DNA of 64,000 nucleotides from Rhynchopus sp. YZ270_cl-10 (lineage: Eukaryota), in assembly GCA_964035575.1 (NCBI GenBank), contig OZ037840.1, positions 806,001-870,000 on the forward strand, in the 5' to 3' direction. A program made the translations under genes and the position numbers. Numbering within the stretch: position 1 is the stretch's first letter; every line of letters starts with the position of its first letter. Positions 24,866 to 56,642 of the stretch are shown piece by piece. The notes beneath the pieces are model-generated. The model had not been told where the DNA came from. It saw only the letters and a program-made list of their open reading frames with translations, and made no database searches.

Positions 24866-26318
24866 ACAAAAAAGAATTCAATTATGGGGGTGATTCCTTA
24901 AGAGAGGTTGATTTGATTGTGTTTTTGTGTTTTTTTTTTGGTTCACTTTAGTTAGTTGAATCTTATCGGGGGGGTTTTTTTTTGGTGTGTTTCACTGTAA
25001 ACGGAAAATGGAAAAAGAGAGGTTTGTCGGTAATTAAAAAAGGAACTGATGTATTAGGTAATCTTTACCTAGTATTGAAAAGTGTGGTTCGAAACAAAGG
25101 AAAAAACGCTTTATCTAGGTGTGTCTCATGAACAAAAGACTGCGGTCTTCTGGTGATTAGGAGCTTTGTTGTTGTTGGTATTGTTAAATTGCTTGGAGCA
25201 GTGAGTTACCTCGGCGTGTGTTGCTGCAGGTGTGCAATCTCTTGCTTTGGTGCTTTCATCAGATGGCTGGCACCGTCCGTGGGTCAGTTGGAGGTGCCTG
25301 CATCAGCAAACGATTATTTTTGTTGCATTTTTTGGATCCCATTTGCATCCACCTTTCCCCTTCCATAAAAAAAACCCCAAATCGGTTCACCCGGGTTTTT
25401 TCAAAAACCGGTAAAGCGGGAAATCAACCCCTGGTTTTGGCGATTTTTTTTTGTCTTTTGTGTGCACAGTGATGCACACAGTCATCTTCTTTCAAAATTC
25501 TTTTCAGAACGTGGTCAGAGGCAGTACCAGGGTCAAAGTGCCTGCACTAAACCCGCCTACACTGTTAGGCAGTCTCTAAAAAAGCAGCACGCTTGTTTTT
25601 GAGTAACACAAAAAGACCACCCAAAAATAACCAAAACGCGAACAGAACAAAATATTTGATTTTTTTTTTAAACCAATCAATCCTATCGCTATCCTCCCTT
25701 GCCAGCATGCACTACTTTGTTCAATCATACACAGCAAAACCCCCCAAAGGCGTACCGTTAGCGTGGCGTGCAAGAGAGGAGTGTGTAGACGGGAAGGGGG
25801 GATAAAACCTGTGTAAAAACTGCCGGTCTCGACACACTGGGGTTGTGCCAATCTCTCAAAAAAAAAAAAAAACCCCCCCCCCGTTTTTTTCCAGCTCTTG
25901 AAGGCTTTTTTTTTTGATATATTATTGTTGTTCACAGGATGTGCGTGAGACACGTTCATCTTTCAAAAAATTCTCTGTTGAAGCTCAGAAAATTTCAGTC
26001 GATCCGTATTGATACATAGCTTCGTCGCTTTTTTTTTTCTGGCAGTGTTTGATTTTGATTTGATTTGATTTTTTTTTTTTTTTGTGAAAACAGATGCACC
26101 CACACTGCCTTGTTGTGGATACAATGAATGTGGGTTTGCCGTCTGTCCTCTGAATTAGCAGAGTGTGCTTCGTTTCGTATGTTTTTTTGTCGTTTATTTT
26201 CTCGCCATGTTCCCCCACTCCCACTCCGCTTGTTGTGTTGGTCGCTTGAAAACTATCAATTTTAAGCCTTTGTTCGTCACCTGGTGATATCTTTTCAAAG
26301 TGACTAAGCACGAATTTT

Positions 26319-26657
26319 TTTTTTTTGAACATGATCCACTTTTATTTTTGCAATTTTGATTTTTTCATTCTTTTACAATGTAGGTTTCGAAAACTGTCTG
26401 GGCCTTGAGCGACAGCGGAACACTAACTACAAGTCCACAGAGGGTCATGCACTGATGAAGTCCACCTCTGTTTACAACTAATGTATGCGTTTAGGACTGA
26501 AACATGGACTTGTGGTACAGATGTACCACCCTACAAAAACTTTTGAATATGCATATTTACAAAAAAACAAAAACAAAACAAAAAGGATCCAAAAATACAA
26601 CAAAAAAGATTGATGAATAACCAATGTTCAAAACATTAAGTAATCTAATCAGACTAA
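26319..26657 (+). repeat. 339-bp direct repeat, copy 1 (contains a hammerhead ribozyme)
   Basis: Appears identical to 27899-28237 (offset 1580). Confidence 0.95.
26426..26516 (+). ncRNA. Hammerhead ribozyme candidate with a permuted/pseudoknotted topology; predicted cleavage after GUA at 26485
   Basis: CTGATGA 26452-26458 and GAAA 26499-26502. Stem II AGTCC/GGACT, stem III ATGT/ACAT, stem I ATGCA/TGCGT. Extra helix ACAGAGG/CCTCTGT. Outer stem ACTACAAGTCCA/TGGACTTGTGGT. Confidence 0.82.
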
Positions 26658-27898
26658 CCCCTGTGATACCGCGTCCTAGACGGTCTGTTGGTCGCAGCAT
26701 TTTGTTTGCAACAAGCAGGCAGCCACATAAAACGTAGGAAGTGGCTTTTTTCTGCTTCCAGTAGTAATAAGACCATGGACGTTTTATATAGTTGAATAAA
26801 AATATAAAAAAATATGTGTTCAACCTGGCGGACGAGCGGCTTAGAAACAGATACGCCAGTCCATGAATGCCAGAACATCAATCAAACTTTTCATTCAAAA
26901 GACTTTTTCCTTTTTTTATTTTTTTGAAACAAAACACCGATGAAGACGAACCTGCTGTTATCCAGTGAACGGGTTCCACGAAACAAAAAGTATTCATGTC
27001 TCGCTTCAGTGAACGCGGGGATTTTTGTCTCGCGTACTAATTACGTTGAGAATAACCACGAACAAAGTGTGCCGCAACATTTTTTGCGAAGAGGATATAC
27101 CCGTACACCAAATATCCATTTTCACCTTTTTTTCCTTTTTTTACCTTTTTTTACGGTCAGCCCGGATAATACCGCTACATACTTGGGGAAAGATGTACAG
27201 GCTGTACCCCGAATAACTTTTGTGTACCTTCAGCAACACAAAAAGCGCAAAAATAAGATACACTCATTTTTCTAAGCTTAGCCTGACATGTGGCAAACAA
27301 GAAAACATTGCAACAAGTTGGCGACTATTAAATATCACCAACATGCACCTTTGTTCATCCAAGATAAAAAAAACAAAAGAACCAAACAGATGTAAGCAAT
27401 CAAGACAGCGCTTCTGCATAACAAATGATAGAGTCGATGTCGATAGCTAACTTTTATTTTTTACTTCGTGCCTGATAGACAAGCAATGGCGAGTATGGGC
27501 AGCCAACCCATTCCGACCAAGGGCAAGCTTGGGCGATGAACCCATTAAGACCCACAGGGCGAGCCGGGATATATACCCGAGCCGACCCTGCCCCCAACCC
27601 CCAACCCCCTGCCGAGCCGAGCCGAGCCGAGCGAGTGTGCCGAGCCGAGCCGAGCAGAAAAGACTTGATCAACCAGAGTTACAAAGTTTCTTCATAAAAA
27701 AAGCTAAAAAAATGGTTGAAGATTAAAATGTACTAACAACCTGCAAACCACCTGTGTCACTATTATGCTGACTATCGACCCACGTGGCGAGTCAGTAGTG
27801 GCGTTATATTTGACCTTTTTTTAACAAAGTACCCTGCTATATGCAGAGTAACTGCCTTGGATGAGGTGAGCTACGATCATCCGAAAATATAAAACAAG

Positions 27899-28237
27899 TT
27901 TTTTTTGAACATGATCCACTTTTATTTTTGCAATTTTGATTTTTTCATTCTTTTACAATGTAGGTTTCGAAAACTGTCTGGGCCTTGAGCGACAGCGGAA
28001 CACTAACTACAAGTCCACAGAGGGTCATGCACTGATGAAGTCCACCTCTGTTTACAACTAATGTATGCGTTTAGGACTGAAACATGGACTTGTGGTACAG
28101 ATGTACCACCCTACAAAAACTTTTGAATATGCATATTTACAAAAAAACAAAAACAAAACAAAAAGGATCCAAAAATACAACAAAAAAGATTGATGAATAA
28201 CCAATGTTCAAAACATTAAGTAATCTAATCAGACTAA
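27899..28237 (+). repeat. 339-bp direct repeat, copy 2
   Basis: Appears identical to 26319-26657. Confidence 0.95.
28006..28096 (+). ncRNA. Hammerhead ribozyme candidate, second identical copy; predicted cleavage after 28065
   Basis: Same sequence as 26426-26516. Confidence 0.82.
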
Positions 28238-29191
28238 GCACGAAAGGCTCAGGTTATTTCTCATAATGTTTGGTCCATTTCAGATGTAAACCACGAAAAA
28301 TGGATGTAGGACTGCATGGTTGGGTGACCACCCCCCGGTACAGCCGGTCATGTACCCAAGGTGCACTGTTCACGAGAGGGGGTTGTATTTCAAGGTCAAT
28401 TTTTGTTTTGTCCATTTCAAAAAACCTCAAAAACACCAGGGCTTTCTTTGGACTATATCCTGGGACAGAGCCTATTTAACACAACCCCCAGCCAATTCCG
28501 CCTGAGAACAGGAGTCTACTGGAAGTTGTCCTACACGACGTGGTCCAGGACCAATTTCACTTGTCATGGTGACAACTGAAATGACAAGTGACATTGATGA
28601 GGCACCTCGTGCACTGTGTGTGTCTGGGTGACAGACCCACACCTTGCCACGTCGTGCGACACCACAAGCTTCGCCTCCGTCGCCACCGTGTTTAAATAAG
28701 GCCAAAAAAAGGGAGGGGGGGTTTTTTTTTATAGCATAGCCTTTGTTTTGTTCAATCTACGTTATGTCCGTTTCTTCTCTCTACCCCCCTCTATCATCTC
28801 ACTGTGCTGCGATTGCCCAAAAAAAAACAAAAAACAAAAAAAAACCCCTAGTCGGCTTGCTTCACAATGAGTTATCCCATGACAAATTATCCCTGTTTCG
28901 GTGACTGACGAAGAGAGTTGGATAGGTACTAGGGTGACTCAACGTAGACTGCGACAAATGGAAGTAAGCTGGCGGGAGGGGGAGGTGGGTGTACTGTTGC
29001 AACACGTGATATTTTATTTTATTTTTCGAATTTTTTTTTTTCAAAAAAAAAAAAATAGAAAATACAATGGGGCATCCTTAGACCCCTTGGGTGACATTCT
29101 GTGGCCAACCTATAGCGGGGCCATAGTCGATGCAACAAAAAAACCCCACAAAAAAAATCCAAACAAAAAAATATTGTTGTAACGAAGTCGG

Positions 29192-37851: not shown

Positions 37852-39075
37852 ATGGAAGTCCACATCGAGGAGACCAGCAGCGGTGCCACCTACACCGTCG
37901 TCGTTGGTACCGAGGACACCGTCCGCTGCCTGCGTGCCAAGGTGGCTGCAGCGACCTCCCCCTCCTGCCACACACACCCACCCAGCTCTCTCCCGGACGC
38001 ACCACCGCCACCCCTCCCGCACCTCCTCCTGCACGGCACGCCCCTCGGGGATGACGACACCCCCATCAGCACAACACGACTCTGCAGTGGCGACAGGCTT
38101 ACGGCAGACGTCTCCCCCATGGAGGTGGAGGAGGAGGAGGCTGCCTGTACGTGGAAGCACCCTGCACGATACGAGGCAGGAGGGGGTCTCATGGCGATGT
38201 CCCCCTGTGGAAGGTACTGTGTGCACACCGTGGTGGGGTGTGGCGTTCATATTGTCGATCTGGTGGCAGGAGAGAGTGTTGTGGTGGTGTCTGGAGATAA
38301 GAGCAATGTGGTTTCTTCGTTGGATGTGACGGAACACCACATTGTGTATGCAGTGTACGGAATGTCCCGAACAGAGGTCGCTGTGGTGGACCGGAGAACG
38401 CATTTGACCCTGCAGTCTCTGCATTGTGATAGCGCAGTGACGGCGTTGTCTGCGACGTCAGATGGAGTGTTTCTGGTGGTAAGCTGTTATGCTGGGATCT
38501 GTGTGTTCAATATCTTAACGGCAGAGTGCGTCAGAAAGAAGCGAGGGTATGGACACATTGCGACAGTTTCGCCGTGCAACCGATGGATCGCAAGCTGTGA
38601 TCGGCTGATTGATTTTGAGACATTGGAGCAGATACATCACTTGGGGCACACAGGCACCCCAATTCGAGCACCGGTGTTTTCACCAGAAGGGGATGTGGTG
38701 GCGATTCTGAATGGAGGTGTTGTGGATGTGTTTGCGACAAGAGACGGCACGCATCTGCATCGCACAGGGCACCGGCATATCATCTCTGCGGTGACGTTCA
38801 GTGCGGACGGAGTGTACCTCTTCACAGCCTCCTTTAACCAGGTGGACTCCTGGGTCACGGCATCCCACCTTGCCACCCACTCCCGCACACCCTTCTTATC
38901 GTGCACATCTTCTCTGTGTGGTCTAGCTGTCTCACGCGATATGCAGGTAGCATTGATCCTGGATAGGCAGAAGATCGACGTTGTCAGCAGACGTATCCCT
39001 GATACCAGAACTGCTAGCGTAAAGGATGCAAATAGCAGCAGCCAGGCAAGCAGCAGCGTCTGTCCATGCTGCTGA
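37852..39075 (+). CDS. Ubiquitin-like domain plus WD40-like beta-propeller protein, C-terminal CPCC; paralogue 1
   Basis: ATG chosen by alignment with the 40497 copy. MEVHIEETSSGATYTVVVGTEDTV..LRAKV Ubl-like start. Propeller repeats (MSPCGRY, FSPEGD, FSADG). Confidence 0.88.
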   Translation: MEVHIEETSSGATYTVVVGTEDTVRCLRAKVAAATSPSCHTHPPSSLPDAPPPPLPHLLLHGTPLGDDDTPISTTRLCSGDRLTADVSPMEVEEEEAACTWKHPARYEAGGGLMAMSPCGRYCVHTVVGCGVHIVDLVAGESVVVVSGDKSNVVSSLDVTEHHIVYAVYGMSRTEVAVVDRRTHLTLQSLHCDSAVTALSATSDGVFLVVSCYAGICVFNILTAECVRKKRGYGHIATVSPCNRWIASCDRLIDFETLEQIHHLGHTGTPIRAPVFSPEGDVVAILNGGVVDVFATRDGTHLHRTGHRHIISAVTFSADGVYLFTASFNQVDSWVTASHLATHSRTPFLSCTSSLCGLAVSRDMQVALILDRQKIDVVSRRIPDTRTASVKDANSSSQASSSVCPCC

Positions 39076-39682
39076 GAGGCCAGGGTATCATTTTAGGTGA
39101 CGAAAGAGAGTGCGGTGAAGGTTGTCTGATAAGCGTTCTTTTGGTACCTCCATTGCAGCCTCCCTGGAAGCCGTGTGCCAAATGAAATGTTCTGTCCTAT
39201 GTACACTTTTGGTAATATAAAAAAAACGGTTAAGACAATGCATGTCTTCAGACAGCTGTCGCTTCCCCGACCTCCGTAAAGTGCACATCGAGAGGAGATC
39301 GGGAGGCGATAGCATTAGCTAGTGAGCCCTCGTTTGGTGATACCAGGTGGGGAGGTGGGGAGTTTGGCTGGGGCGGTAGATCTGTTATGCATTAACACAA
39401 CAAACACAACACAACCCCCAGGCCCTTCTTGGACTCCCTCCCACCAGGGGTACCTGTAACGAGGGGGGTAAAAACGGCCCGGCCCCCGGCCCCCGGCCCT
39501 TGGTTATCAAATGGAGAAAATCACGTGTATGTATACACGGTATACACAACGCAACCTTGTGCGCGGGTTTTTGGGTCATTGTTGCCCACAAACGGGCCGG
39601 CATTTGCATTCCGGAATCCGTCCGGCCAGTGGTGGGGTCAATTTGACGAAATGGACAAGTTCTCGTTTTTGGTCAATTTTTG

Positions 39683-40015
39683 CAGTATACACAGTATACA
39701 CAGTATACACAGTATACACAGTATACACAGTATACACAGTATACACAGTATACACAGTATACACAGTATACACAGTATACACAGTATACACAGTATACAC
39801 AGTATACACAGTATACACAGTATACACAGTATACACAGTATACACAGTATACACAGTATACACAGTATACACAGTATACACAGTATACACAGTATACACA
39901 GTATACACAGTATACACAGTATACACAGTATACACAGTATACACAGTATACACAGTATACACAGTATACACAGTATACACAGTATACACAGTATACACAG
40001 TATACACAGTATACA
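39683..40015. repeat. (CAGTATACA)37 tandem repeat
   Basis: 333 bp of perfect 9-mer units. Confidence 0.97.
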
Positions 40016-40020
40016 CAATA

Positions 40021-40250
40021 CAGTACAGTACAGTACAGTACAGTACAGTACAGTACAGTACAGTACAGTACAGTACAGTACAGTACAGTACAGTACAGTA
40101 CAGTACAGTACAGTACAGTACAGTACAGTACAGTACAGTACAGTACAGTACAGTACAGTACAGTACAGTACAGTACAGTACAGTACAGTACAGTACAGTA
40201 CAGTACAGTACAGTACAGTACAGTACAGTACAGTACAGTACAGTACAGTA
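40021..40250. repeat. (CAGTA)46 tandem repeat
   Basis: 230 bp of perfect 5-mer units. Confidence 0.97.
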
Positions 40251-40496
40251 CAGTGTAAAAAAACTCAAAAATCCCTCTCGCGCCTTGGCGAAAAATGTTT
40301 TTTTTCAAAACCGGCTTTATTTGAAAGATTGAGATCCGCTGACCCCAAAAAACAAAATCGGCCCCAGCCAAGAATAGCTATACAAAAGCAGAATAACGGC
40401 GAGAGCATTTCCCACGTAATTTCTTAAGGGATTTTTCTCGGCCCAGAGGCCCGGCCCGCGGCCCCACGTTACAGGTACCCCTGCCTCCCACCCACT

Positions 40497-41708
40497 ATGG
40501 AAGTCCACATCGAGGAGACCAGCAGCGGTGCCACCTACACCGTCGTCGTTGGTACCGAGGACACCGTCCGCTGCCTGCGTGCCAAGGTGGCTGCAGCGAC
40601 CTCCGCCCCCTCCTGCCACACACACCCACCCAGCTCTCTCCCGGACGCACCACCGCCACCCCTCCCGCACCTCCTCCTGCACGGCACGCCCCTCGGGGAT
40701 GACGACACCCCCATCAGCACAACACGACTCTGCAGTGGCGACAGGCTTACGGCAGACGTCTCCCCCATGGAGGTGGAGGAGGAGGAGGCTGCCTGTACGT
40801 GGAAGCACCCTGCACGATACGAGGCAGGAGGGGGTCTCATGGCGATGTCCCCCTGTGGAAGGTACTGTGTGCACACCGTGGTGGGGTGTGGCGTTCATAT
40901 TGTCGATCTGGTGGCAGGAGAGAGTGTTGAGGTGGTGTCTGGTGAGAGGAGCAATGTGATCACTGCGTTGGGTGTGACGGAACACCACATTGTGTACGGA
41001 ATGTCCCGAACAGAGGTCGCTGTGGTGGACCGGAGAACGCATTTGACCCTGCAGTCTCTGCATTGTGATAGCGCAGTGACGGCGTTGTCTGCGACGTCAG
41101 ATGGAGTGTTTGTGGTGGTAAGCTGTTATGCTGGGATCTGTGTGTTCAATATCTTAACGGCAGAGTGCGTCAGAAAGAAGCGAGGGTATGGACACATTGC
41201 GACAGTTTCGCCGTGCAACCGATGGATCGCAAGCTGTGATCGGCTGCTTGATTTTGAGACATTAGAGCAGATACGGCGCTTTGGCGTGTCTATTCGAGAG
41301 TCCACTAGAGCACCGGTGTTTTCACCAGAAGGGGATGTGGTGGCGATCCCGAGGGGGAACTTTGTGGATGTGTTTGCGACCAGAGACGGCACGCATCTGC
41401 ATTGCACAAGACACGCGAACGTCATCTCCGCAGTGACGTTCAGTGCGGACGGAGAGTACCTCTTCACAGCCTCCTTCGACTCCCGGGTCATGGCATCCAA
41501 CCTCACCACCCACGCCTACGTCCGCACGCTCTTCTTCTCACATAGAACGTCTCTGTGGGGTCTAGCCATATCGCACGATATGCAGGTTGCGTTGATCCTG
41601 GATATGCAGAGTATCCACGTTGTCAGCAAGACCTCGTACACCAGAGGTCATCGCGTAGATGCAAATAGAAGCAGCCAGGCAAGCAGCAGCGTCTGTCCAT
41701 GCTGCTGA
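40497..41708 (+). CDS. Ubiquitin-like domain plus WD40-like beta-propeller protein, C-terminal CPCC; paralogue 2
   Basis: 403 aa. The first ~140 aa are almost identical to paralogue 1, with patchy divergence afterwards. Confidence 0.88.
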   Translation: MEVHIEETSSGATYTVVVGTEDTVRCLRAKVAAATSAPSCHTHPPSSLPDAPPPPLPHLLLHGTPLGDDDTPISTTRLCSGDRLTADVSPMEVEEEEAACTWKHPARYEAGGGLMAMSPCGRYCVHTVVGCGVHIVDLVAGESVEVVSGERSNVITALGVTEHHIVYGMSRTEVAVVDRRTHLTLQSLHCDSAVTALSATSDGVFVVVSCYAGICVFNILTAECVRKKRGYGHIATVSPCNRWIASCDRLLDFETLEQIRRFGVSIRESTRAPVFSPEGDVVAIPRGNFVDVFATRDGTHLHCTRHANVISAVTFSADGEYLFTASFDSRVMASNLTTHAYVRTLFFSHRTSLWGLAISHDMQVALILDMQSIHVVSKTSYTRGHRVDANRSSQASSSVCPCC

Positions 41709-45316: not shown

Positions 45317-47419
45317 TATGGTGTATCCCCACCTTTTCAAATACAATACAAAACAAACAGAGTAGCAAAAACAAAAAAAAACAAAAAGCAAACAAGCTTA
45401 CAAACCCCCCCGCCTTTTCACTTCACCTTTTTCTTCATAGATTACATGGTTGAGGGTTCACCCCGGTACAGCCGGTCATTGTACCAAGGTACTGTTCACG
45501 AGAGGGCTGTTGTGATTTCAAGTCAACTTTGTTTTTGGCGTGATTTGCGAAGAACACAAACCAGGAGGGAAATTTTTTGTGAATCAGGTGACTGAGCGCT
45601 TCAGGCTTTAGGGCTCCTCTTTAACAAAATGCTGAAGAAAGGGTTTTGTATTTCAAGTCGACTTTTTCTTCCCCTTTCCTCATGCCTTAATGACTTGAGG
45701 GGTTGATGCCCTGCATTGACTTTCTATGCAGCAAAAACATGGATGAGTGAAAGAGTGTCTTGTATGGGCTACACTCGAACAGAATATCAAAAAAAAAAAC
45801 AAAACAAAAATAGTTAGTAATTTCACGACAATGAAGTAGTCATTTTTTACTCGAGTATGTTTTTTTTTTGCACGCGAGAAAAATTGTATCTGCTGTCCTC
45901 TGGATGAGGGTCTGCAGATTTCATTTGGGTTTTATTTAGAAGGTTCAGAGGTGACCTACGATGTTTAGGTTCACCTTACCAACTTTTATTCCTGTGTTTT
46001 CGATGTGAACCGCGTGCATTTCGTGTGAATTTAGTTCTTCCGATTTTCTTTTTTCTTTTTTTTTCTTTTTTGTGTGAAGAAAAATCGTGGCTGTTATCTT
46101 GTGGTAGTCAATCAAACAATTTTTTGCTTTCCCTCCCCTCTCGATTTCTCCCTCCAAAAAACAAACAAAAAAATAATAAAAAAAATAATAATAACACAGA
46201 AAGGGGAGATGCCAAAGATATGATTTTCCCACTATTGTTGCCTGCATATTTTGCAGCATTTATCATGGGGCAACACTATGCACACAGAGCCACCCCTATC
46301 CCCTAAGTTCCCCTCAAAGGTAACCTATTGCGGAGCTCCCCCAGCCGCCCCAACGTGACATAGCGAAGAAATGCAAAATTGTCCTTCCACACCCACGCAC
46401 GCACACCCTCGGGTTTTTGCTGTTGTGGGGAAAATGGTATTTCTTTGTGCGCACATCAAGGCACATTCTTTCGCAATTTTTTCTTCTTTTAGACGCCCTT
46501 TTTATATGGTTGATGGGTAGAATGTAAAAGGGTGGCTAATCACAGAGGATTGGGTTTCTTCTTCTTTTATAAAAAAAAATGAAAACAAAAGGTGAAATTT
46601 ATTCTGTTCCCCGCGAGACCTATCTACTCTTCTGGGGGTCTCCCTGACTGCGAGATGTGGTCACGAGGGAATTTATCTTTCACATGTTTATTTTTTATTT
46701 TTGGTGTAGGTAGGTGACCCAAGCCAGTGAGTCTTGGGTTCATATTACCATGCCATTTCTCTCTTGTATTCCGGTGGTGTGCTCTATTCTTTATTCCGAG
46801 ATACGTGGACAAGAGGTGCATGGTTCATTTCATTTTATTTTTTTCGCTCTTCCTTGTAACATCTAGTTCCTCTTCTTCGAAACTGTGCTTCCCAGTGTGT
46901 GAGGCCACCTTCCAACCTTCGCTATCTCGTTTTTTTAAATTTGTACGCACACTACTTTTGTGAGCGGAAAGTGTCAACGTCGTTCACTCACCTTAACCGT
47001 GCTGCGCAACACCACCACCCAACATGTGTGGAAGCGTCAACGCATCAAACAACTACAAGAAGGGGGGTGAGGGAACGACAAGGTGACACTTTTTATTTCT
47101 TATCTGCTGAACAGGCCTGGTGCTAAGTGCCATTTCGCCGTTTCGGGTTTTTTCGTAGGGATCTCTTACTCATGTGAAAAAGAAAAAAATAAATGAAGTA
47201 TAGTGGAGCACACTCTAGGGTGGCTACACTAATACAACCAAGTTTCCAATAAATGAAAAAAAAAAAAAAAAAACGGCCTGGGTGTCCTGGGAAAATATGT
47301 TGGGAGTCTTGTATAACTGTGTGGGAAATGCAAAAAAAAAATAATAATAAAAAAATAGTGGAGCTCGCCCTCGGGTGTCGACACTAATACAACTAAGTTT
47401 TCAAAAAAAAAATATTTAA

Positions 47420-50044: not shown

Positions 50045-50591
50045 CAGGCCTCAGCCTAACTGGGGGGGGTAGGCAGGCCAACACGGATTAGGGGTGGTGG
50101 GTCCCCCCCGCCCCCCCGCCCCCCCCTCTGTACACGGTTGTACAGGGGCTGGGCCGAAGAAAAATTTTTCCAACCAATTTTTGCCCACAAAAAATCGAGA
50201 AAAAAAAAATTTTTTTTTCGATTCTCCTGTGTCTGTGCGTGCTGTGATGGGGTCATTTCGCGCTCAGAAATGAGTATTTTTGACCCAAAATACATGTGTC
50301 AGTTTTGGACTGAAAATTTCAAAAATCGTGTAAAAACTGACACATGTATTTTGGGTCAAAAATACTCATTTCTGAGCGCGAAATGACCCCATCACAGCAC
50401 GCACAGACACAGGAGAATCGAAAAAAAAAATTTTTTTTTTCGATTTTTTGTGGGCAAAAATTGGTCGGAAAAATTTTTCTTCGGCCCACCCCCTGTATAA
50501 CTGTGTACAGAGGTGGGGGGGGGGGGGGGGGGGGGGGGGTACCACCCACCCCCCAAGGCCAACATCGGCCGAAAAATTACCCAGAGGCCTG
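50045..50591. mobile_element. Fold-back element: probable hAT-like ends enclosing a ~215-bp-arm inverted repeat
   Basis: Arms ~50091-50306 / 50333-50555 with a 26-nt spacer. Outer CAGGCCTC/GAGGCCTG. Flanks TCCCCCAC / TCCCCCCC (7/8, low complexity). Confidence 0.8.
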
Positions 50592-50688
50592 TCCCCCCCC
50601 CCCCCCTCTCTCTTTTTTATTATTCCAAAGTGTACTCAAAAAAACAATGACTCGACAAAAGTGTTCATGTTTTTACTTTTTATTTTAA

Positions 50689-50759
50689 GCCCTTGCTCCT
50701 TCTGATGAGCGCGGTCGAAGGGCACTTTTCCTGGTCAGGGAGCAGACCGCCGAAACCAG
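50689..50759 (+). ncRNA. Hammerhead ribozyme candidate with the same permuted topology; predicted cleavage after GUC at 50736
   Basis: CTGATGA 50702-50708 and GAAA 50752-50755. Stem II G(C)GCGGTC/GACCGCC, stem III CTGGT/ACCAG, stem I TGCTCCTT/AGGGAGCA. Extra helix GCCCT(T)/(A)AGGGC. Confidence 0.87.
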
Positions 50760-51459
50760 TTTTTAACTTTTCCTTTTCTTTTATTTTGAAAAACACGAAA
50801 AAAGATTCCTGAAGACCAATTGGTCATGGATCCAAAACACAAAAGCAACAACAAAACAAAAAAGCAAATAGTACATTTTTAAAGACCACCAAAACAAAAA
50901 GAGCACAAAGCAAAAACAACAACTTTCTGACAAACACCCCCCCCTCTCAGATCTATATAATAGGTCATTCGAGTGTACACCATGCGTATAAGTCAGGGTG
51001 TTAGCTACTTTTTCGAACTTTCCTGGAGAAAAAAAAAATTCACCAATTCCGGAACCAACTTTTTTTTCCCCTGAAGAAAAAAGGGGGGTGAAAGTTAAAG
51101 CGATGGATATGGCTCACGTGCACACACATCTTTGTTTTGTTGCATCTCATCTCTGTCTCAAAGCGCCTCATTTATTTTTGCCTGCATATTTTGCAGCATT
51201 TATCATGGGGCAACACTATGCACACAGAGCCACCCCTATCCCCTAAGTTCCCCTCAAAGGTAACCTATTGCGGAGCTCCCCCAGCCGCCCCAACGTGACA
51301 TAGCGAAGAAATACGAATTGTCCACCCCACCCATGCGCCCTACACCCTCGGGTTTTGCTGTTGTGGGGAAAATGGTATTTCTTTGTGCGCACATCAAGGC
51401 ACATTCCTTCGCAAATTTTTCTTCTTTTAGACGCCCTTTTTAAATTGTTGATGAGTATC

Positions 51460-51555
51460 CAGTAGGACAATATTGGCGACCAAAAAATTCGCCAATTGCA
51501 AGAAAAACCCCCAAATCCGCCATTTTTTTTGGTCGCCAAGCTTCTTGTCCAACTG
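51460..51555. mobile_element. Short Tc1/mariner-like MITE inserted in a satellite unit (related reverse copy ~18030-18118)
   Basis: TIR CAGTAGGACAA / TTGTCCAACTG followed by TA. Absent from sister units at GATGGGTAGAATGTAAAAGGG. Confidence 0.7.
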
Positions 51556-52814
51556 TAATGTAAAAGGGTGGCTAATCACAGAGGATTGGGTTCATCTGAG
51601 AAACCTTTTCTTTTGCAGTTTCAAAACTCTTTAATTTGATGGGTGTGCACGTGATGCATATTACATCTTTCAGCTTTTTCCCCTTTTTTTGCATCTCATC
51701 TCTGTCTCAAGATGCCTCTTCTCTTTAGAAATAGATGACCAAGCACGAGAGGCTCAGGTTAGTCTTATCAACTTTTTTTCTTTTGCCTGCACATATTTTG
51801 CAGCATTTATCATGGCTTGGTGCACACAGAGCCACCCCTATCCCCTAAGTTCCCCTCAAAGGTAACCTATTGCGGAGCTCCCCCAGCCGCCCCAACGTGA
51901 CATAGCGAAGAAATACGAATTGTCCACCCCACCCATGCACCCTACACCCTCGGGTTTTGCTGTTGTAGGGAAATGGTATTTCTTTGTGCGCACATCAAGG
52001 CACATTCCTTCGCAAATTTTTCTTCTTTTAGACGTCCTTTTTATATTGTTGATGGGTAGAATGTAAAAGGGTGGCTAATCACAGAGGATTGGGTTCATCT
52101 GATAAACCTTTTCTTTTGCAGTTTCAAGTTCTCCTTTTTTCTTTTTGATGGGTGTGCACGTGAAGCGTATGTGATCGTTCAGTTTTTTTCCTTTTCATCT
52201 CATCTCTGTTTCAAGATGTTTCACTTATTTTTGCCTGCACATATTTTGCAGCACTTATCATGGCACGGTGCACAATAGCCACCCCTATCCCCTAAGTTCC
52301 TCAACTCCCTTTTGTAAGGTGACTGAACAGCCTTTCAGTTAATCTTGACAAAGTTTTTCTCTGACAAACTGTTTTGAGACTTTTTATTTTGGATAACGAA
52401 AAAACCGCCCCCCCCGTTATTCCCCATTGCGGAGCTCCCCCAGCCGCCCCAACGTGACATAGCGAAGAAATACAAAATTGTCCTTCCCACCCGTGCACGC
52501 ACACCCCTCGGGTTTTTGCTGTTGTGGGGAAATTGTATTTCTTTGTGCGCACATCAAGGCACATTCCTTCGCAAATTTTTCTTCTTTTAGACGTCCTTTT
52601 TATATGGTTGATGGGTAGAATGTATAAGGGTGGCTAATCACAGAGGATTGGGTTCATCTGATAAACCTTTTCTTTGCATTTTCAAGTTCTCTCTATTTTG
52701 ATGGGCACATTCCATCTTGCAACTTTTTTTTCCTTTGCTGCATCTATCTCTGTCTCAAGATGCCTCTTCTCTTTTGCCTGCATATTTTGCAGCATTTATC
52801 ATGGGGCAACACTA

Positions 52815-52984
52815 CACGACGGTGAAGTAAATCACATGGCATGTGCTTTACATGTAACTTTTTTTTACATGTCCTCACATGTCATTTTACCTGTAAAATA
52901 ACATGTAAGGTAACGTATACTGACCATAAAAAGGTCAACCGACATGTAAAATGCACATGTCATGTCATTTACTTCACCGTCGTG
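52815..52984. mobile_element. 170-bp MITE with CAC..GTG ends inserted in a satellite unit
   Basis: Perfect 18-bp TIR CACGACGGTGAAGTAAAT / ATTTACTTCACCGTCGTG. ACATGT subterminal repeats. Empty site CAACACTA^TGCACACAG in sister units. Confidence 0.88.
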
Positions 52985-54652
52985 TGCACACAGAGCCACC
53001 CCTATCCCCTAAGTTCCCCTCAAAGGTAACCTATTGTGGAGCTCCCCCAGCCGCCCCAACGTGACATAGCGAAGAAATGCAAATTGTCCACCCCACCCAT
53101 GCACCCGCACTCTCGGGTTTTGCTGTGTGGGGAAATGGTATTTCTTTGTGCGCACATCAAGGCACATTCCTTCGCAAATTTTTCTTCTTTTAGTCGCCCT
53201 TTTTATATTGTTGATGGGTAGAATGTAAAAAGGTGGCTAATCACAGAGGATTGGGTTCATCTGAGAAACCTTTTTCTTTTCACTTTCAGCATTTTCATTT
53301 TTTAATTTGATGGGTGTGCACGTGGTGCATATTCCGTCAATTCAGCTTTTTCCCTTTTTGCATCTCATCTCTGTTTCAAGATGCCTCTTCTTTTGCCTGC
53401 ATATTTTGCAGTATAGGACTTGAGGTCTCTTTTTTGGAAAACAGAAAAAAACCCCCATCATTCCCCATTGCGGAGCTCCCCCAGCCGCCCCAACGTGACA
53501 TAGCGAAGAAATACAAAATTGTCCTTCCCACCCGTGCACACACACCCTCGGGTTTTTGCTGTTGTGGGGAAAATTGTATTTCTTTGTGCGCACATCAAGG
53601 CACATTCCTTCGCAAGCTTTTCTTCTTTTTTTTTAGATCTAATCCGACGCCCTTTTTTTTTATCCTTGATGAGGGGATAATTGGTCGGTGGTCAGTAGAG
53701 ATTTCAGTTATCTGCAGTAGTTCAAGTATTTTGGTGGCCAAATAAGTTTGGTGGATTTGGAGATTTTGGAGTAATTTGGTGCCTATTGTGACACCAATCA
53801 TATCTGTACTGCTGTGATAACCGTTTTCTTTGCGCTTTCAACGTCTCTTTCGTTTTGCATCTCATCTCTGTCTCAAAGCGCCTCATTTATTTTTGCCTGC
53901 ATATTTTGCAGCATTTATCATGGGGCAACACTATGCACACAGAGCCACCCCTATCCCCTAAGTTCCCCTCAAAGGTAACCTATTGCGGAGCTCCCCCAGC
54001 CGCCCCAACGTGACATAGCGAAGAAATGCAAATTGTCCACCCCACCCATGCACCCTACACCCTCGGGTTTTGCTGTTGTGGGGAAATTGTATTTCTTTGT
54101 GCGCACATCAAGGCACATTCCTTCGCAAATTTTTCTTCTTTTAGACGCCCTTTTTATATTGATGGGTAGAATGTAAAAGGGTGGCTAATCACAGAGGATT
54201 GGGTTCATCTGATAAACCTTTTCTTTTTGCTTTCAACTTCTCTTTTTTCTTTCAAAATACGCACACTACTTTTGTGAGCGGAAAGTGTCAACGTCGTTCA
54301 CTCACCTAACCGTGCTGCGCAACACCACCACCCAACAGGCGAGAGAGTAGTGCGTGGAAGCGTCAACGCATCAAACAACTACAAGAAGGGGGGGTGAGGG
54401 AACGACAAGGTAACACTTCTTTATTTTCCATCTACCAACTTTTCTCCCCCCCCTTTGTTGCATCTCATCTCTGTCTCAAGGTGCCTCATTTATTTTTGCC
54501 TGCATATTTTGCAGCATTTATCATGGGGCACCACTATGCACACAGAGCCACCCCTATCCCCTAAGTTCCCCTCAAAGGTAACCTATTGCGGAGCTCCCCC
54601 AGCCGCCCCAACGTGACATAGCGAAGAAATCCATATGTCCTCCCCACTCACC

Positions 54653-55471
54653 TAAGGATCCCCCATGTCTTTTTAACGTAGACGTTGTAAAGGCATCTGC
54701 TATGTCGTTATTATTTTTTTGGTATTTTTTTTTTGGATTAAAATTGACTGTTTTTCTCAAAAACAACGACTCAAAAGGCATGAGAGACACCTACGGTGTG
54801 TCATTGTCGCCAACACTACGGTGTCATACAACTATACGGTTTCTTTCTTCGACAGATGTACACTGGTTTATGTTTTGCACAAACCTTTGGTACGTCTGTT
54901 CCTTCGAAGACAGAATAAAACACAGTACAGAATGCACACCGTGGTGTTGGCGACAATCAGCAAAGAGGACGCCGCATGGGCAGGGGTGGCTGCATTCCTT
55001 TTCGGACCGGGGAGCTCCATCCTATTTTGACAAACGTTTATTAGCAAAGAGTACGGCAGCATTTAGAATAGCAGACAAGACAACAACCGGAGCGTTGCTG
55101 TGCAGTTGGCGGGGGAAGCTACTAGAAGATGTCGTAAAGCAGTTCTTTGCGTTACGAAGTGACGCACTCAAAGTCAGCTAGGAGGGGGTTTTTTTTCTCC
55201 AACAACATGGAGATAGACTCGAACAGCTGTGCAGGCAACTCTGCCTGCACAGCTGAACGGCAGTTGCCAAGGGCTCTCAAGAAGCGGGGTGTTTGGAAGA
55301 GAAAGAAGCCAAAAAGAAAATCAGAACGAAAAAAAAAAAACCGACCGAACAAAAAAAAGTGATCATCGCTGTCAGGTTCCATGTGAACTCAGAGTGTGTA
55401 TTTTAACACAACTCTTTTATATCTGTTATTTTCTATTTTCGAAATTTTGAAAAAAAAGGGGGGGATCCTTA
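54653..55471. mobile_element. Mutator(MULE)-like non-autonomous element (819 bp) with a possible coding remnant
   Basis: TIR TAAGGATCCCCC / GGGGGATCCTTA. 9-bp flanks CCACTCACC / CCACCCACC (8/9). It splits the last satellite unit, which resumes at ~55472. Confidence 0.8.
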
Positions 55472-56642
55472 CCACCCACCTCTCGGGTTTTGCTGTTGTG
55501 GGGAAAATGGTATTTCTTTGTGCGCACATCAAGGCACATTCCTTCGCAAAATTCTTCTTTTTTTTTTAGACTTTTTTTTTTCTTGATGGAGGTTTAAAAA
55601 GGATGACTGAGCACAGCTTAGGTTCATCTGAAGACCTTTTCTTTATTGTTTTTTTCTTCTTTTTTTTTTGTTCCCACCCCCCCCGCTTCCTCTTCTCTAA
55701 AACAAAATAATGGTGAACGCGCATCTCACAGGGTTTCCACGCTACTTCGATGACAGAAGATGCGTGACTGCAAATTGGGGGATTTTTTTTTTATTTCATC
55801 ATTCTGTTCGTTTAGAAAAGAATGAAGAAATTATGAAAAAAATCATTTCAGTATTTTGTTCGCAAGATGACTAAGCGCGAGAGGCTTAGGGTCATATGCG
55901 AGTCAGCATGCGAGAATCATTTTCGCTCACGTAGAAGATTTTGGTCGTGCGAGAACGAGCGAGAATTGTGCGAGAGAATTTTTCGCCAGACCAAAATAGT
56001 GCGAGAATGCGAGAAATGCGGCTCGCATCGAGTGTATGCTTAGAGTCATCTTAAAAAAACTTTTCTTTGTGTTGCCTCACTCGAACACAGCTCAAACAGC
56101 GGAGAAACACAAACAAAAATTTGCAGAGCGATAAAACGAAACGCGTCGTTTTTTTTTTCCTCCCTTTGTTTTCTATGGTATTCAGTTATATCCTGAAGTC
56201 AGATTCTATTGTCCCCCATAAAGCAAAGCATCAACAACAATACGAGATTATTTTTCAATCACCTCTACACCTCTCCCCTCCCCCTTAACCCTTTACGGAC
56301 CGGAGCCATTTAAAGTGCCGCGGCTAATCCCGCAAAAAATTGTGGGGTGTACCAAAGGCAACACACATCCACACCCAGTGTCACATCATTTCACCACATT
56401 TCACCACATCACAACACCTTGCCCAAATCCTCCAAACCCTCCCAAAATGCCGCTTAAACCTCAAAACAGAAAAAAAATCAACCCCCAAGACACACACTTC
56501 CCCCTATATAATATGCCTAACTCTTCGCCATAACCTTCGTTTTCTTTCTTTCTCTTTCTCCTCTCCCCTTTCTAAAATACCTCATTCCTGTTCTCTCTGT
56601 TTGCGTTCTCCCTCTCTCCCCCTCCTTTGTATTTCTCCTAAA

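What the first reader, a model, noticed from the sequence alone, without database searches (positions are those of the whole stretch)
50689..50759. Non-circularly permuted, pseudoknotted hammerhead ribozyme: the cleaved strand lies inside loop II
Seen: the 5'->3' order is GCCCT - TGCTCCTT - CTGATGA - G(C)GCGGTC - AGGGC - linker - CTGGTC^AGGGAGCA - GACCGCC - GAAA - CCAG. All canonical core nucleotides (C3-A9, G12-A15.1, U16.1, H17) and stems I (8 bp), II (7 bp) and III (5 bp) are present. However, the substrate strand is nested between the two strands of stem II, and an extra helix pairs the start of loop II with the bases upstream of stem I. Established: hammerhead types I-III are circular permutations and cannot give this order, so standard descriptors would miss it. 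The dissimilar sequence at 26426-26516 has the same order of helices, so every stem is supported by covariation. Inference: an active family of rearranged hammerheads in this protist genome. I recall that non-circular hammerhead permutations have been reported elsewhere, so whether this topology or host is new must be checked.
Basis: partly seen in the sequence, partly recalled or inferred. Interest (0 to 1): 0.95.

Follow-up and report, generated by a model that had tools for sequence, protein, structure and literature searches.

The report
Permuted hammerhead ribozymes in diplonemid genome
Three copies of a rare, rearranged (type-CSG) form of the self-cutting hammerhead RNA motif sit in non-coding repeated DNA of a diplonemid protist; they are predicted to cut their own transcripts and likely ride on mobile elements, which would give this ribozyme form, known so far only from two soil-metagenome sequences, its first known host.

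Summary
Window 50689-50759 (+) holds every conserved hammerhead nucleotide and stems I (8 bp), II (7 bp, one bulge) and III (5 bp). The order is CUGAUGA block, cleavage-site block, GAAA block, with a 5-bp helix tying the far ends of stems I and II.

The topology is already published as the "type-CSG" hammerhead (Eckert et al. 2023, PMC10085705). That paper had two near-identical soil-metagenome sequences, both cleaving in vitro, with no known host.

- **Chance:** my descriptor finds 3 loci in the window, against 31 loci in 1500 shuffles, and 3 when the joining helix is also required.
- **Host:** a diplonemid. Two proteins are 59% identical to Diplonema papillatum.
- **Copy number:** public-run contigs pile up about 50-200 times deeper on the 50.7-kb ribozyme than on unique flank.
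- **Mobility:** the 26-kb pair lies in a 1917-bp non-coding insert, 1.2 copies of a 1580-nt unit, flanked by a 13-bp target-site duplication and supported by a paralogous empty site. This resembles non-LTR retrozymes and Penelope-like partial tandems.

Cleavage, RNA circles and the mobilising enzyme are untested. Verdict: new members, with a new host and context, of a known kind.

The parts
50689..50759 (+). Type-CSG hammerhead, sequence family 1. Block C 50689-50723 (joining helix 5' strand, stem I 3' strand, CUGAUGA, stem II 5' strand, joining helix 3' strand). Block S 50731-50744 (stem III 5' strand, U16.1, C17, stem I 5' strand). Block G 50745-50759 (stem II 3' strand, GAAA, stem III 3' strand). 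Predicted cleavage after C50736.
   Evidence: descriptor: I 8, II 7, III 5, joining helix 5 bp; architecture as in PMC10085705
50684..50940 (+). Approximate extent of the multi-copy repeat that holds ribozyme 1. High contig depth starts at about 50684. Many contigs diverge after 50923, 50927 or 50940. The T-rich stretch 50761-50791 was skipped by the tool.
   Evidence: tables 2, 7 and 8
26430..26512 (+). Type-CSG hammerhead, sequence family 2, copy a. Outer helix 26430-36/26506-12; joining helix 26438-43/26465-70; stem I 26447-51/26486-90; CUGAUGA 26452-58; stem II 26459-63/26494-98 (A10.1-U11.1); stem III 26481-84/26502-05; GAAA 26499-26502. Predicted cleavage after A26485.
   Evidence: nested fold recovers the outer and joining helices
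28010..28092 (+). Family 2, copy b, identical to copy a and shifted by 1580 nt. Predicted cleavage after A28065.
26319..26657 (+). First copy of the 339-bp exact direct repeat that carries ribozyme 2 (pseudo-LTR-like).
   Evidence: 100% over 339 bp
27899..28237 (+). Second copy of the 339-bp exact direct repeat.
26315..28231 (.). 1917-bp non-coding insert, 1.2 copies of a 1580-nt unit. It begins with T12 (T8 at the internal unit junction). The orientation of the transposed RNA is unresolved.
26302..26314 (.). Left copy of the 13-bp target-site duplication GACTAAGCACGAA.
   Evidence: paralogous uninterrupted site at 13667-13693 (24 of 27 identical across the junction)
28232..28244 (.). Right copy of the 13-bp target-site duplication. 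Its first 6 nt are also the element's own sequence at the unit junction, so the duplication is 7-13 bp.

Best explanation
The window holds three + strand copies (two unrelated sequences) of the non-circularly permuted 'type-CSG' hammerhead motif, which are predicted to self-cleave after C50736, A26485 and A28065 and likely belong to multi-copy, non-coding retroelements of a diplonemid nuclear genome. Shown: all conserved core nucleotides are present. [quoted passage not shown] Such motifs are far more frequent than chance allows. Ribozyme 1 is multi-copy in public contigs. Ribozyme 2 lies in each 339-bp direct repeat of a 1917-bp ORF-less insert flanked by a 13-bp target-site duplication. All three copies lie on the strand of the neighbouring genes. 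Inferred: the elements are transcribed as passengers of the host's long co-transcribed gene clusters. The fold is two hairpins (the joining helix and stem III) whose loops pair through stems I and II to build the hammerhead core. Cleavage leaves a 2',3'-cyclic phosphate and a 5'-OH. For the 26-kb element, cutting at both ribozymes would release a 1580-nt unit RNA (26486-28065) that could be ligated into a circle. A reverse transcriptase supplied in trans, copying more than one unit length, would then give partial-tandem insertions such as the 1.2-mer seen here, as proposed for non-LTR retrozymes and Penelope-like elements.
For: Motif and coordinates. Same block order and the same four helices as the experimentally cleaving CSG-1 and CSG-2: PMC10085705 sections 13, 15, 18 and supplementary Fig. 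S10/Stockholm file. Statistics: 3 loci observed against 31 loci in 1500 shuffles, and 3 with a joining helix of 5 bp or more. An earlier run gave a mean of 0.015 loci per shuffle in 200 shuffles. Among all six block orders at strict thresholds only C-S-G hits appear, and only on +. Multi-copy: summed contig depth at 50700-50719 is 17357 (X1) and 20258 (X4), against 94 (X1) and 130-371 (X4) in unique 50960-51099. 269 and 255 contigs were laid. The only variants at 10% or more inside the ribozyme are at 50724 and 50725, in a linker. Mobility: 339-bp repeats are 100% identical and 1580 nt apart. An identical 13-mer lies at both ends, and the joined flanks match a paralogous site ungapped, 24 of 27, with score 39 against a maximum of 27 in 1000 shuffles. 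Non-coding: the longest stop-to-stop frame inside the insert is 115 aa with no Pfam hit, and no Rfam hit on either strand at E<=1. Host and transcription context: the Mito_carr ORF and the 4-domain channel are each 59% identical to Diplonema papillatum proteins. All ORFs with Pfam hits lie on +. D. papillatum genes are reported as co-transcribed in groups of up to 100 in a genome that is 52% repeats, with LINE-1 and SLACS reverse transcriptases (PMC10161547, passages). Partial tandems with a hammerhead in each pseudo-LTR are the known layout of Penelope-like elements (PMC11167929 main text part 1; PMC8557442 passages). Animal non-LTR retrozymes are proposed to be their non-autonomous derivatives (bioRxiv 10.64898/2026.07.22.740005, abstract only).
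Against: No cleavage assay and no RNA data: no run is on record as RNA. Ribozyme 2 has A10.1-U11.1 where natural hammerheads nearly always have G-C (recalled, not tested), which may slow it. Ribozyme 1 has no linker between the stem I and stem II strands, against 5 nt in CSG-1 and CSG-2, so some end pairs may have to open. The published CSG ribozymes are slow (0.004 and 0.026 per min). No reverse transcriptase, primer-binding site or polypurine tract was found in the window (sequence). The T12 run beside the left duplication would fit a poly(A)-tailed minus-strand RNA as the transposed molecule, which puts the ribozyme on the antisense strand of that intermediate. The flanks of the two families share only an A/C-rich tract (5 of 300 shuffles reach its score) and a GGATCCAAAA 69-80 nt downstream, so common descent is not shown. 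The depth figures are sums over contigs of runs of unrecorded kind and are not a copy count. No related sequence was found in any collection.
Confidence: 0.7

Rival explanations
1. Real hammerhead-derived motifs that no longer cleave (relics), or that are kept for another reason such as binding a protein or serving as a structural module of the repeat.
For: Ribozyme 2 has A10.1-U11.1, and ribozyme 1 has a bulge in stem II and a zero-length I/II linker. The published type-CSG examples are already slow. The homogeneity of ribozyme 1 copies could reflect recent amplification rather than selection.
Against: Every invariant core position is intact in two unrelated sequences. All four helices are kept with entirely different base pairs. 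The only common variants in the high-copy family fall in a linker.
Confidence: 0.12
2. The 26-kb insert is a DNA copy of an exogenous viroid-like circular RNA replicon (a 'retroviroid'-type event), not a genomic retroelement family. Permuted hammerheads were first found in such RNA circles.
For: The insert is longer than unit length (1.2 x 1580 nt), as expected from copying a circle or multimer. Type-SGC hammerheads occur in metatranscriptome circular RNAs alongside hairpin ribozymes. The insert has no ORF.
Against: No second ribozyme on the minus strand. The published type-CSG examples occur only in DNA. Ribozyme 1 is a high-copy genomic repeat. Neither pattern matched viral or metagenome collections.
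Confidence: 0.08
3. Host-domesticated processing signals that cut polycistronic precursors in long intergenic regions, for example to define RNA ends or control neighbouring genes.
For: All three copies are in the sense orientation of the gene cluster and lie in long gene-poor spacers, 24.6-29.4 kb and 43.4-56.3 kb.
Against: There are only two independent insertions, so orientation is not significant. Repeat and target-duplication signatures point to selfish spread. No conserved position relative to genes could be tested.
Confidence: 0.06
4. The motif works only between molecules or between tandem copies: the blocks of one copy pair with those of another, as in dimeric minimal hammerheads, not as a monomeric pseudoknot.
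For: The fold has all three stems crossing one another, and the zero-length linker in ribozyme 1 is sterically tight. Penelope-like minimal hammerheads are said to act as dimers (recalled).
Against: CSG-1 and CSG-2, with the same topology, cleave as single transcripts. The joining helix, and the outer helix in ribozyme 2, make sense only for an intramolecular fold.
Confidence: 0.04
5. Chance resemblance to a hammerhead.
For: One weak relaxed hit inside a coding ORF (12854) shows that loose criteria do give noise.
Against: 31 loci in 1500 shuffles, and 3 with a joining helix, against 3 of 3 real loci with one. The repeat boundary coincides with the ribozyme.
Confidence: 0.01

Closest known systems
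Type-CSG hammerhead ribozymes CSG-1 and CSG-2 (Eckert, Friedrich, Weinberg & Weinberg, NAR 2023, PMC10085705)
   Same: Same block order (CUGAUGA block, cleavage-site block, GAAA block). Same intact core. Same stems I, II and III, all crossing one another. Same extra helix joining the distal ends of stems I and II. Similar size (66 nt published, 68-71 nt here). Found in DNA.
   Different: No sequence similarity outside the core, by eye against the alignment. Joining helix 5-7 bp against 8. Linker from joining helix to stem III 7-10 nt against 2. Linker from stem I to stem II 0-3 nt against 5. A bulge in stem II (family 1). A10.1-U11.1 and an outer closing helix (family 2). The published pair comes from soil-metagenome contigs with no host or context and differs at 8 positions. 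Here there are two unrelated sequences in a diplonemid chromosome-size contig, one of them high-copy. Activity is shown for the published pair and not tested here.
Type-SGC hammerheads (HRIMA-1 motif and variants; same paper)
   Same: [quoted passage not shown]
   Different: Block order S-G-C. Found in metatranscriptomes on putative circular RNAs with hairpin ribozymes, not in DNA.
Non-LTR retrozymes and the pseudo-LTR hammerheads of Penelope-like elements (PMC4209133 search listing only; PMC11167929 main text part 1; PMC8557442 passages; bioRxiv 10.64898/2026.07.22.740005 abstract)
   Same: Non-coding or pseudo-LTR repeats each carrying a hammerhead. Tandem or partial-tandem insertions. Proposed release of unit RNA by self-cleavage and mobilisation by a reverse transcriptase supplied in trans.
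   Different: Those ribozymes are type I (circularly permuted, Rfam-detectable). The hosts are animals, plus some plants, fungi and protists; Euglenozoa, Discoba, diplonemids and kinetoplastids are not mentioned in PMC8557442 (0 occurrences of each). No Penelope-like RT/GIY-YIG gene or 30-40-bp 'tail' was identified here.
Plant LTR retrozymes (Cervera, Urbina & de la Pena 2016; recalled, not read here)
   Same: Two direct repeats of about 350 bp, each with a hammerhead, around a non-coding core. Unit RNA is excised and circularised.
   Different: Type III ribozyme, 4-bp duplication, primer-binding site and polypurine tract. Here the duplication is 7-13 bp, no such sites are evident, and the repeats look like a partial tandem, not LTRs.
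HDV-like ribozyme at the 5' end of L1Tc/NARTc retroposons of Trypanosoma cruzi (Pr77; recalled, not read here)
   Same: A self-cleaving ribozyme on a retroelement that depends on read-through transcription in a euglenozoan with polycistronic transcription.
   Different: A different ribozyme class that cuts at its own 5' edge, so the whole ribozyme stays on the element RNA. A type-CSG hammerhead cuts internally, which calls for a circular or multimeric intermediate to be inherited.

Membership tests
Hammerhead ribozyme (catalytic core) | C3-U4-G5-A6-N7-G8-A9 between stems I and II | tested here: met
   CUGAUGA at 50702-08, 26452-58 and 28032-38
Hammerhead ribozyme (catalytic core) | G12-A13-A14 between stems II and III, A15.1-U16.1 pair, H17 at the cleavage site | tested here: met
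   GAAA at 50752-55 with U50735 and C50736. GAAA at 26499-26502 with U26484 and A26485
Hammerhead ribozyme (catalytic core) | Three Watson-Crick helices I, II and III directly abutting the core | tested here: met
   I/II/III = 8/7/5 bp and 5/5/4 bp
Hammerhead ribozyme (catalytic core) | G10.1-C11.1 pair (near-invariant in natural examples; recalled) | tested here: inconclusive
   Met in family 1 (G50709-C50751). Family 2 has A26459-U26498.
Hammerhead ribozyme (catalytic core) | Site-specific Mg2+-dependent self-cleavage giving 2',3'-cyclic phosphate and 5'-OH | not testable with these tools
   No RNA run on record.
Type-CSG permutation (Eckert et al. 2023) | 5'-to-3' order Block C, Block S, Block G, with each block uninterrupted | tested here: met
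   Definition. One bulged C inside the stem II strand of family 1.
Type-CSG permutation (Eckert et al. 2023) | Helix joining the distal ends of stems I and II (5' of Block C pairs with the 3' end of Block C) | tested here: met
   5 bp (50689-93/50719-23) and 6-7 bp (26437/8-43/26465-70/71). Only 3 of 31 shuffle hits have one of 5 bp or more. Structure line of the published alignment.
Type-CSG permutation (Eckert et al. 2023) | Sequence relationship to CSG-1 and CSG-2 | tested here: not met
   By eye against the alignment printed, nothing is shared outside the core. The published contigs are not in the searchable collection: 4 of 4 loci matching a 19-nt motif were chance hits. Membership is therefore by architecture, not descent.
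Rfam hammerhead families (types I, II, III, HH9, HH10) | Match to a covariance model at gathering score | tested here: not met
   0 matches on the window. No hammerhead at E<=10 or E<=1. This is expected, because these models cannot represent the order.
Retrozyme / Penelope-like partial tandem | Non-coding unit with a hammerhead in each direct repeat, inserted as a tandem or partial tandem with a target-site duplication | tested here: met
   (26-kb element only)
Retrozyme / Penelope-like partial tandem | Many dispersed copies of the same unit in the genome | tested here: inconclusive
   Shown by depth for the family 1 ribozyme region.
Retrozyme / Penelope-like partial tandem | Circular unit-length RNA and a partner autonomous element sharing its ends | not testable with these tools
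   No RNA data. No RT found in the 64-kb window.
Plant-type LTR retrozyme | 4-bp duplication, TG..CA LTR ends, tRNA-Met primer-binding site, polypurine tract | tested here: not met
   Sequence: the repeat starts with T8GAAC and ends with CAGACTAA, the duplication is 7-13 bp, and no primer-binding site is evident by eye.

The most novel reading that the evidence does not exclude
Type-CSG hammerheads are the processing ribozymes of a family of diplonemid retrozyme-like elements. These elements ride the host's polycistronic transcripts, cut themselves out as unit RNAs, circularise, and are copied back into DNA by a retroelement reverse transcriptase. This would be the first host, the first biology and the first large natural sequence set for a non-circularly permuted ribozyme. 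It would also be the first hammerhead-bearing mobile element in Discoba.
Probability: 0.4. Interest if true: 0.8.

Novelty: new member of a known kind. Interest (0 to 1): 0.62.

Why it matters
Non-circular permutation of a ribozyme is a recent and thinly documented idea. For type CSG the whole published record is two near-identical soil-metagenome sequences with "modest covariation", and the authors themselves call its biological relevance weaker than that of type SGC.

Two unrelated sequences with the same four helices, sitting in an identifiable protist lineage, add independent support for the fold. One of them is a high-copy repeat.

They also turn an orphan motif into something testable in an organism: cleavage, circular RNA, the mobilising enzyme and the effect on polycistronic transcripts. 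A genome-wide harvest of copies could supply the covariation statistics the published class lacks, and natural length variants of each linker for structural work.

The finding also shows that ribozyme surveys based on type I-III models miss hammerheads in eukaryotic genomes.

Tried and rejected
- **Whole genome:** none is held, so no genome-wide descriptor search was possible.
- **Window patterns in public collections:**
  - Metagenome contigs, 22-nt block-C pattern: 0.
  - Viral contigs, family 1 and family 2 patterns: 0 and 0.
  - Genome contigs, 25-nt S/G pattern: 0.
- **Published CSG contigs:** a 19-nt motif common to CSG-1 and CSG-2 gave 4 loci. None of the 4 continues as a CSG ribozyme, so they are chance hits, and the published contigs are not in the collection.
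- **Sequencing runs:** no RNA holder is listed, so there is no evidence on expression either way. X8 laid nothing on 50540-51130. Copy number and insertion polymorphism of the 1580-nt unit therefore stay open.
- **Flank homology between the two ribozyme loci:**
  - MAFFT did not even align the cores.
  - Local alignment finds only an A/C-rich tract downstream (5 of 300 shuffles reach it) and nothing upstream (102 of 300).
  - GGATCCAAAA is not enriched in the window: 6 matches against 7.56 expected at up to 1 mismatch. Its exact + strand copies are the three sites 69-80 nt after the ribozymes.
- **Nested folding:** z-scores are unremarkable (+0.93 and -1.10), as expected for a pseudoknot.
- **Relaxed descriptor (3/3/3 bp):** it adds 12854 (+, inside the BspA-LRR ORF, G-U/A-U-rich stems), 25262 (-, GSC) and 21875 (-, SCG). 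I judged these noise. In one search the 50.7-kb locus was dropped by my own no-overlap rule, because an extra U-G pair runs stem I into the stem II strand., which cap stem I, find it.
- **Protein atlas:** no help for taxonomy.
- **Earlier findings of this scan:** nothing for this genome, for the sequence, or for the words hammerhead/permuted/pseudoknot/CSG/diplonemid together.
- **Literature:**
  - 'type-CSG' or 'CSG hammerhead' occurs only in Eckert 2023 among 47 papers matching any of the four terms; the rest concern curli Csg proteins and the like.
  - The 5 papers holding both 'hammerhead' and 'diplonem*' are on other topics by title and abstract, and mention hammerhead only once or twice each.
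  - 'Ribozyme' occurs 0 times in the main text of the D. papillatum genome paper; its supplements were not read.
Full report
**What is there**

Window 50689-50759 on the + strand reads as follows:

| Part | Sequence | Coordinates |
|---|---|---|
| Joining helix, 5' strand | GCCCU | 50689-93 |
| Stem I, 3' strand | UGCUCCUU | 50694-50701 |
| Core | CUGAUGA | 50702-08 |
| Stem II, 5' strand (C50710 bulged) | G(C)GCGGUC | 50709-16 |
| Spacer | GA | 50717-18 |
| Joining helix, 3' strand | AGGGC | 50719-23 |
| Linker | 7 nt | 50724-30 |
| Stem III, 5' strand, ending in U16.1 | CUGGU | 50731-35 |
| Cleavage-site nucleotide | C17 | 50736 |
| Stem I, 5' strand | AGGGAGCA | 50737-44 |
| Stem II, 3' strand | GACCGCC | 50745-51 |
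| G12-A14 of the GAAA core | GAA | 50752-54 |
| Stem III, 3' strand | ACCAG | 50755-59 |

All three core stems cross one another, so no circular permutation of types I-III can give this order.

Rfam 15 finds no hammerhead:
- 0 matches on the whole window at gathering score.
- None among the 65 matches at E<=10 in 50400-51000. Those are mostly miRNA models on a poly-G/poly-C hairpin at 50505-50617.
- None at E<=1 in 26200-28450.

**It is a published topology**

Eckert, Friedrich, Weinberg and Weinberg (NAR 2023, PMC10085705) divide the hammerhead into three blocks. I read sections 13, 15 and 18, passages elsewhere, and the supplement's Fig. S10 and Stockholm file.
- Block C is stem I strand, CUGAnGA, stem II strand.
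- Block S is stem III strand, cleavage site, stem I strand.
- Block G is stem II strand, GAAA, stem III strand.

Types I, II and III are the orders CGS, GSC and SCG. The authors found type SGC in metatranscriptomes. By pattern search they found "type CSG" as two similar sequences (8 differences) from soil-metagenome DNA. Both cleave at the expected site, at 0.004 and 0.026 per minute.

The structure line of their alignment has the same elements in the same order as here:
- the joining helix directly 5' of the stem I strand and directly 3' of the stem II strand;
- then stem III opening;
- then the stem I and stem II partners;
- then GAAA and stem III closing.

The authors rate the evidence for type CSG as weaker than for type SGC, because covariation is modest, and give no host. 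The topology is known, and the open questions are the host and the family.

**Second and third copies**

My parse is:
- outer helix CAAGUCC at 26430-36;
- joining helix CAGAGG at 26438-43;
- 3-nt spacer;
- stem I strand AUGCA at 26447-51;
- CUGAUGA at 26452-58;
- stem II strand AGUCC at 26459-63;
- joining helix CCUCUG at 26465-70;
- linker;
- stem III strand AUGU at 26481-84;
- A17 at 26485;
- stem I strand UGCGU at 26486-90;
- UUA;
- stem II strand GGACU at 26494-98;
- GAAA at 26499-26502, with stem III strand ACAU at 26502-05;
- outer helix GGACUUG at 26506-12.

None of its helices shares sequence with the 50.7-kb copy. An identical copy lies 1580 nt downstream, with its core at 28032.

Seen as a nested structure, the fold is two hairpins, the joining helix and stem III. 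In family 2 they are closed by the outer helix into a three-way junction. The loops of the two hairpins pair through stems I and II to build the core. Nested folding indeed returns the joining helix and stem III for family 1, and the outer and joining helices for family 2. Energy z-scores are unremarkable, as expected when half of the pairs are pseudoknotted.

**Chance**

My descriptor required:
- CUGANGA and GAAA;
- U16.1 and H17;
- stem I of at least 4 bp;
- stem II of at least 4 bp, with one bulge allowed;
- stem III of at least 4 bp, including 15.1-16.1;
- order C-S-G within 150 nt.

It did not require the joining helix.

| Test | Result |
|---|---|
| Window, both strands | 3 loci, all on + |
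| 200 dinucleotide shuffles | mean 0.015 loci per shuffle |
| 1500 dinucleotide shuffles | 31 loci in all; 31 of 1500 shuffles had one, none had two |
| Shuffle loci with a joining helix of 5 bp or more | 3 |
| Real loci with a joining helix | 3 of 3, of 7, 7 and 5 bp |

A script testing all six block orders at the same thresholds reported only C-S-G hits, and only on +. In that script the 50.7-kb locus was dropped by my own no-overlap rule, because an extra U-G pair runs stem I into the stem II strand. Relaxed thresholds add three weak hits that I regard as noise. One lies inside a coding ORF with G-U/A-U-rich stems.

**Host and setting**

- ORFs with Pfam domains all lie on the + strand. They include a four-domain cation channel, BspA-type LRR, a cyclase domain, ankyrin, WD40, a mitochondrial carrier and SBF.
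- The mitochondrial carrier and the channel are each 59% identical to Diplonema papillatum proteins.
- Both are 74% identical to unnamed EukProt transcriptome proteins, and the channel is 47% identical to a Hemistasia entry.
- The contig is 1.37 Mb long.

The host is therefore a diplonemid other than D. papillatum. In D. papillatum, genes are reported as co-transcribed in groups of up to 100. [quoted passage not shown] The main text never mentions ribozymes (PMC10161547, passages).

All three ribozymes are in the sense orientation, in long ORF-poor spacers at 24.6-29.4 kb and 43.4-56.3 kb.

**Ribozyme 1 is a high-copy repeat**

I laid the contigs of four public runs on 50540-51130 at 80% likeness or more.

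| Region | X1 summed depth | X4 summed depth |
|---|---|---|
| 50680-50759 (the ribozyme) | about 4,900 to 17,400 | about 10,900 to 20,300 |
| 50960-51099 (unique flank) | 94 | 130 to 371 |

- 269 contigs (X1) and 255 contigs (X4) were laid.
- The high depth begins at about 50684, 5 nt before the joining helix.
- The tool skipped the T-rich stretch 50761-50791.
- Depth is high again at 50800-50940, an A/C-rich region, and many contigs diverge after 50923, 50927 or 50940.
- Inside the ribozyme, the only differences shown by 10% or more of the depth are at 50724 and 50725 (A>T, C>G, and 1-nt deletions). These lie in the linker between the joining helix and stem III. No such differences were seen in any stem or core position.

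Caveats: the runs' kind is not on record. They hold 60-84% of the sampled words of a mostly non-coding 10-kb stretch, so they are most likely DNA. Summed contig depth is not a copy count. I read the result as dozens to hundreds of copies of a repeat of roughly 250 nt whose best-conserved part is the ribozyme.

**Ribozyme 2 sits in a target-duplicated partial tandem**

- The segments 26319-26657 and 27899-28237 are 100% identical over 339 bp.
- The 13-mer GACTAAGCACGAA lies at 26302-26314 and again at 28232-28244.
- The 1917 bp between them (26315-28231) is 1.2 copies of a 1580-nt unit.
- The 30 nt left of the insert, ending with the left 13-mer, joined to the 30 nt right of the second 13-mer, align without a gap across the junction to a paralogous site at 13667-13693. 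There, 24 of 27 positions are identical, with score 39 against a maximum of 27 in 1000 shuffles. Such an uninterrupted paralogous site is what a target-site duplication predicts.
- The first 6 nt of the right 13-mer are also the element's own sequence at the unit junction, so the duplication is 7-13 bp, with possible microhomology.
- The insert has no frame longer than 115 aa, no Pfam hit and no Rfam hit on either strand.

An insert longer than one unit, with a ribozyme in each repeated end, is the layout of two known kinds of element. Penelope-like elements are described as "tandem or partial-tandem repeats" forming pseudo-LTRs with a hammerhead (PMC11167929 main text part 1; PMC8557442 passages). 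Animal non-LTR retrozymes are now proposed to be their non-autonomous derivatives, mobilised through a rolling-circle route (bioRxiv 10.64898/2026.07.22.740005, abstract only).

**Most likely mechanism**

The steps below are inferred unless marked otherwise.
1. The elements have no promoter of their own and are transcribed within the host's polycistronic units.
2. The RNA folds into the two-hairpin pseudoknot.
3. The hammerhead core cuts after H17, leaving 2',3'-cyclic phosphate and 5'-OH ends.
4. For the 26-kb element, cuts after 26485 and 28065 release a 1580-nt RNA (26486-28065) whose ends suit an RtcB-type ligase.
5. A circle or multimer, copied for more than one round by a retroelement reverse transcriptase at a nicked target, gives the 1.2-mer with a target duplication.

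Shown directly are the motif, its statistics, the repeat status, the duplication and the empty site.

An internal cut removes Block C from the downstream product. A linear cleaved RNA therefore could not pass on a whole ribozyme, yet the genomic copies of family 1 do include Block C. That is an argument for a circular, multimeric or uncleaved intermediate.

**What does not fit or stays open**

- The insert starts with T12, against T8 at the internal junction, directly after the left duplication. This would fit a poly(A)-tailed minus-strand RNA as template, with 6-nt microhomology at its 5' junction. The + strand reading fits priming on the GACUAA microhomology. I cannot decide between them.
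- No minus-strand ribozyme was found.
- Ribozyme 2 has an A-U pair at 10.1-11.1. In addition, AGUCC and GGACU each occur twice (outer helix and stem II), which allows an alternative, presumably inactive, pairing.
- Ribozyme 1 has no linker between the stem I and stem II strands.
- The two families share no demonstrable flank homology.
- No relatives were found in metagenome, viral or prokaryote collections, and the published CSG contigs could not be fetched.

**Novelty and verdict**

The ribozyme architecture is known from the 2023 paper, so these are new members of that kind. The following are new as far as my searches reach. 'Type-CSG' occurs only in the 2023 paper, and the papers holding both 'hammerhead' and 'diplonem*' are on other topics by title and abstract.
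- An identified host, a diplonemid, which is a eukaryote of the Discoba.
- Two unrelated sequence families that keep all four helices.
- High copy number.
- A mobile-element signature.

I put the motif being a genuine type-CSG hammerhead at about 0.9, and the whole statement, including mobile-element carriage, at about 0.7. The full retrozyme-like life cycle I put at about 0.4.

Noticed in passing
window 50103-50535: A 435-bp inverted repeat (92% between arms, centre near 50319) lies just upstream of ribozyme 1. It is bordered by long G and C runs (about 50514-50540 and 50590-50607) that draw spurious miRNA-model hits. It may be a foldback or MITE-like element.
   Followed up: partly
window 28281-28406, 9916-10042, 13535-13655, 45445-45537: A repeat of about 125 nt ('element B', about 80% identity, 4 copies) is preceded by a pyrimidine tract plus AG. 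In 2-3 cases it is followed or preceded by the motif GTGACTAAGCACGA(A/G)AGGCT, which is the target site of the 26-kb insert. The consensus fold is weak (-7.4 kcal/mol, 1 compensatory pair of 27), so it is probably not a structured RNA.
   Followed up: partly
window 51126-55592 and 46186-46631: A degenerate tandem array of units of about 500-600 bp (60-100% identity) starts 370 nt after ribozyme 1, with a solitary unit 5 kb upstream. It has no convincing ORF. It recalls the tandemly repeated intergenic and 5'-UTR segments described for D. papillatum (PMC10161547).
   Followed up: no
window 37836-38834 vs 40481-41476, and 39593-40314: Two near-identical (88-100%) segments about 2.64 kb apart overlap WD40-like ORFs. 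They are separated by perfect 9-bp and 10-bp microsatellite arrays of about 40 and 25 units.
   Followed up: no
window 26430-26436, 26459-26463, 26494-26498, 26506-26512: In ribozyme 2 the stem II strands (AGUCC/GGACU) are repeated in the outer helix, so two mutually exclusive pairing schemes are possible. This could act as a conformational switch between cleaving and non-cleaving folds.
   Followed up: no
window 50719 to 50861 (contigs of runs X1 and X4): One contig in each of two runs joins 50719 directly to 50861, at about single-copy depth. This is a genomic variant copy that keeps Block C but lacks the cleavage-site and GAAA blocks.
   Followed up: no
window 50828-50837, 26585-26594, 28165-28174: An exact GGATCCAAAA followed by an A/C-rich tract lies 69-80 nt downstream of each ribozyme. 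The 10-mer is not enriched in the window as a whole, so this is at most a weak hint that the two families share a module.
   Followed up: partly
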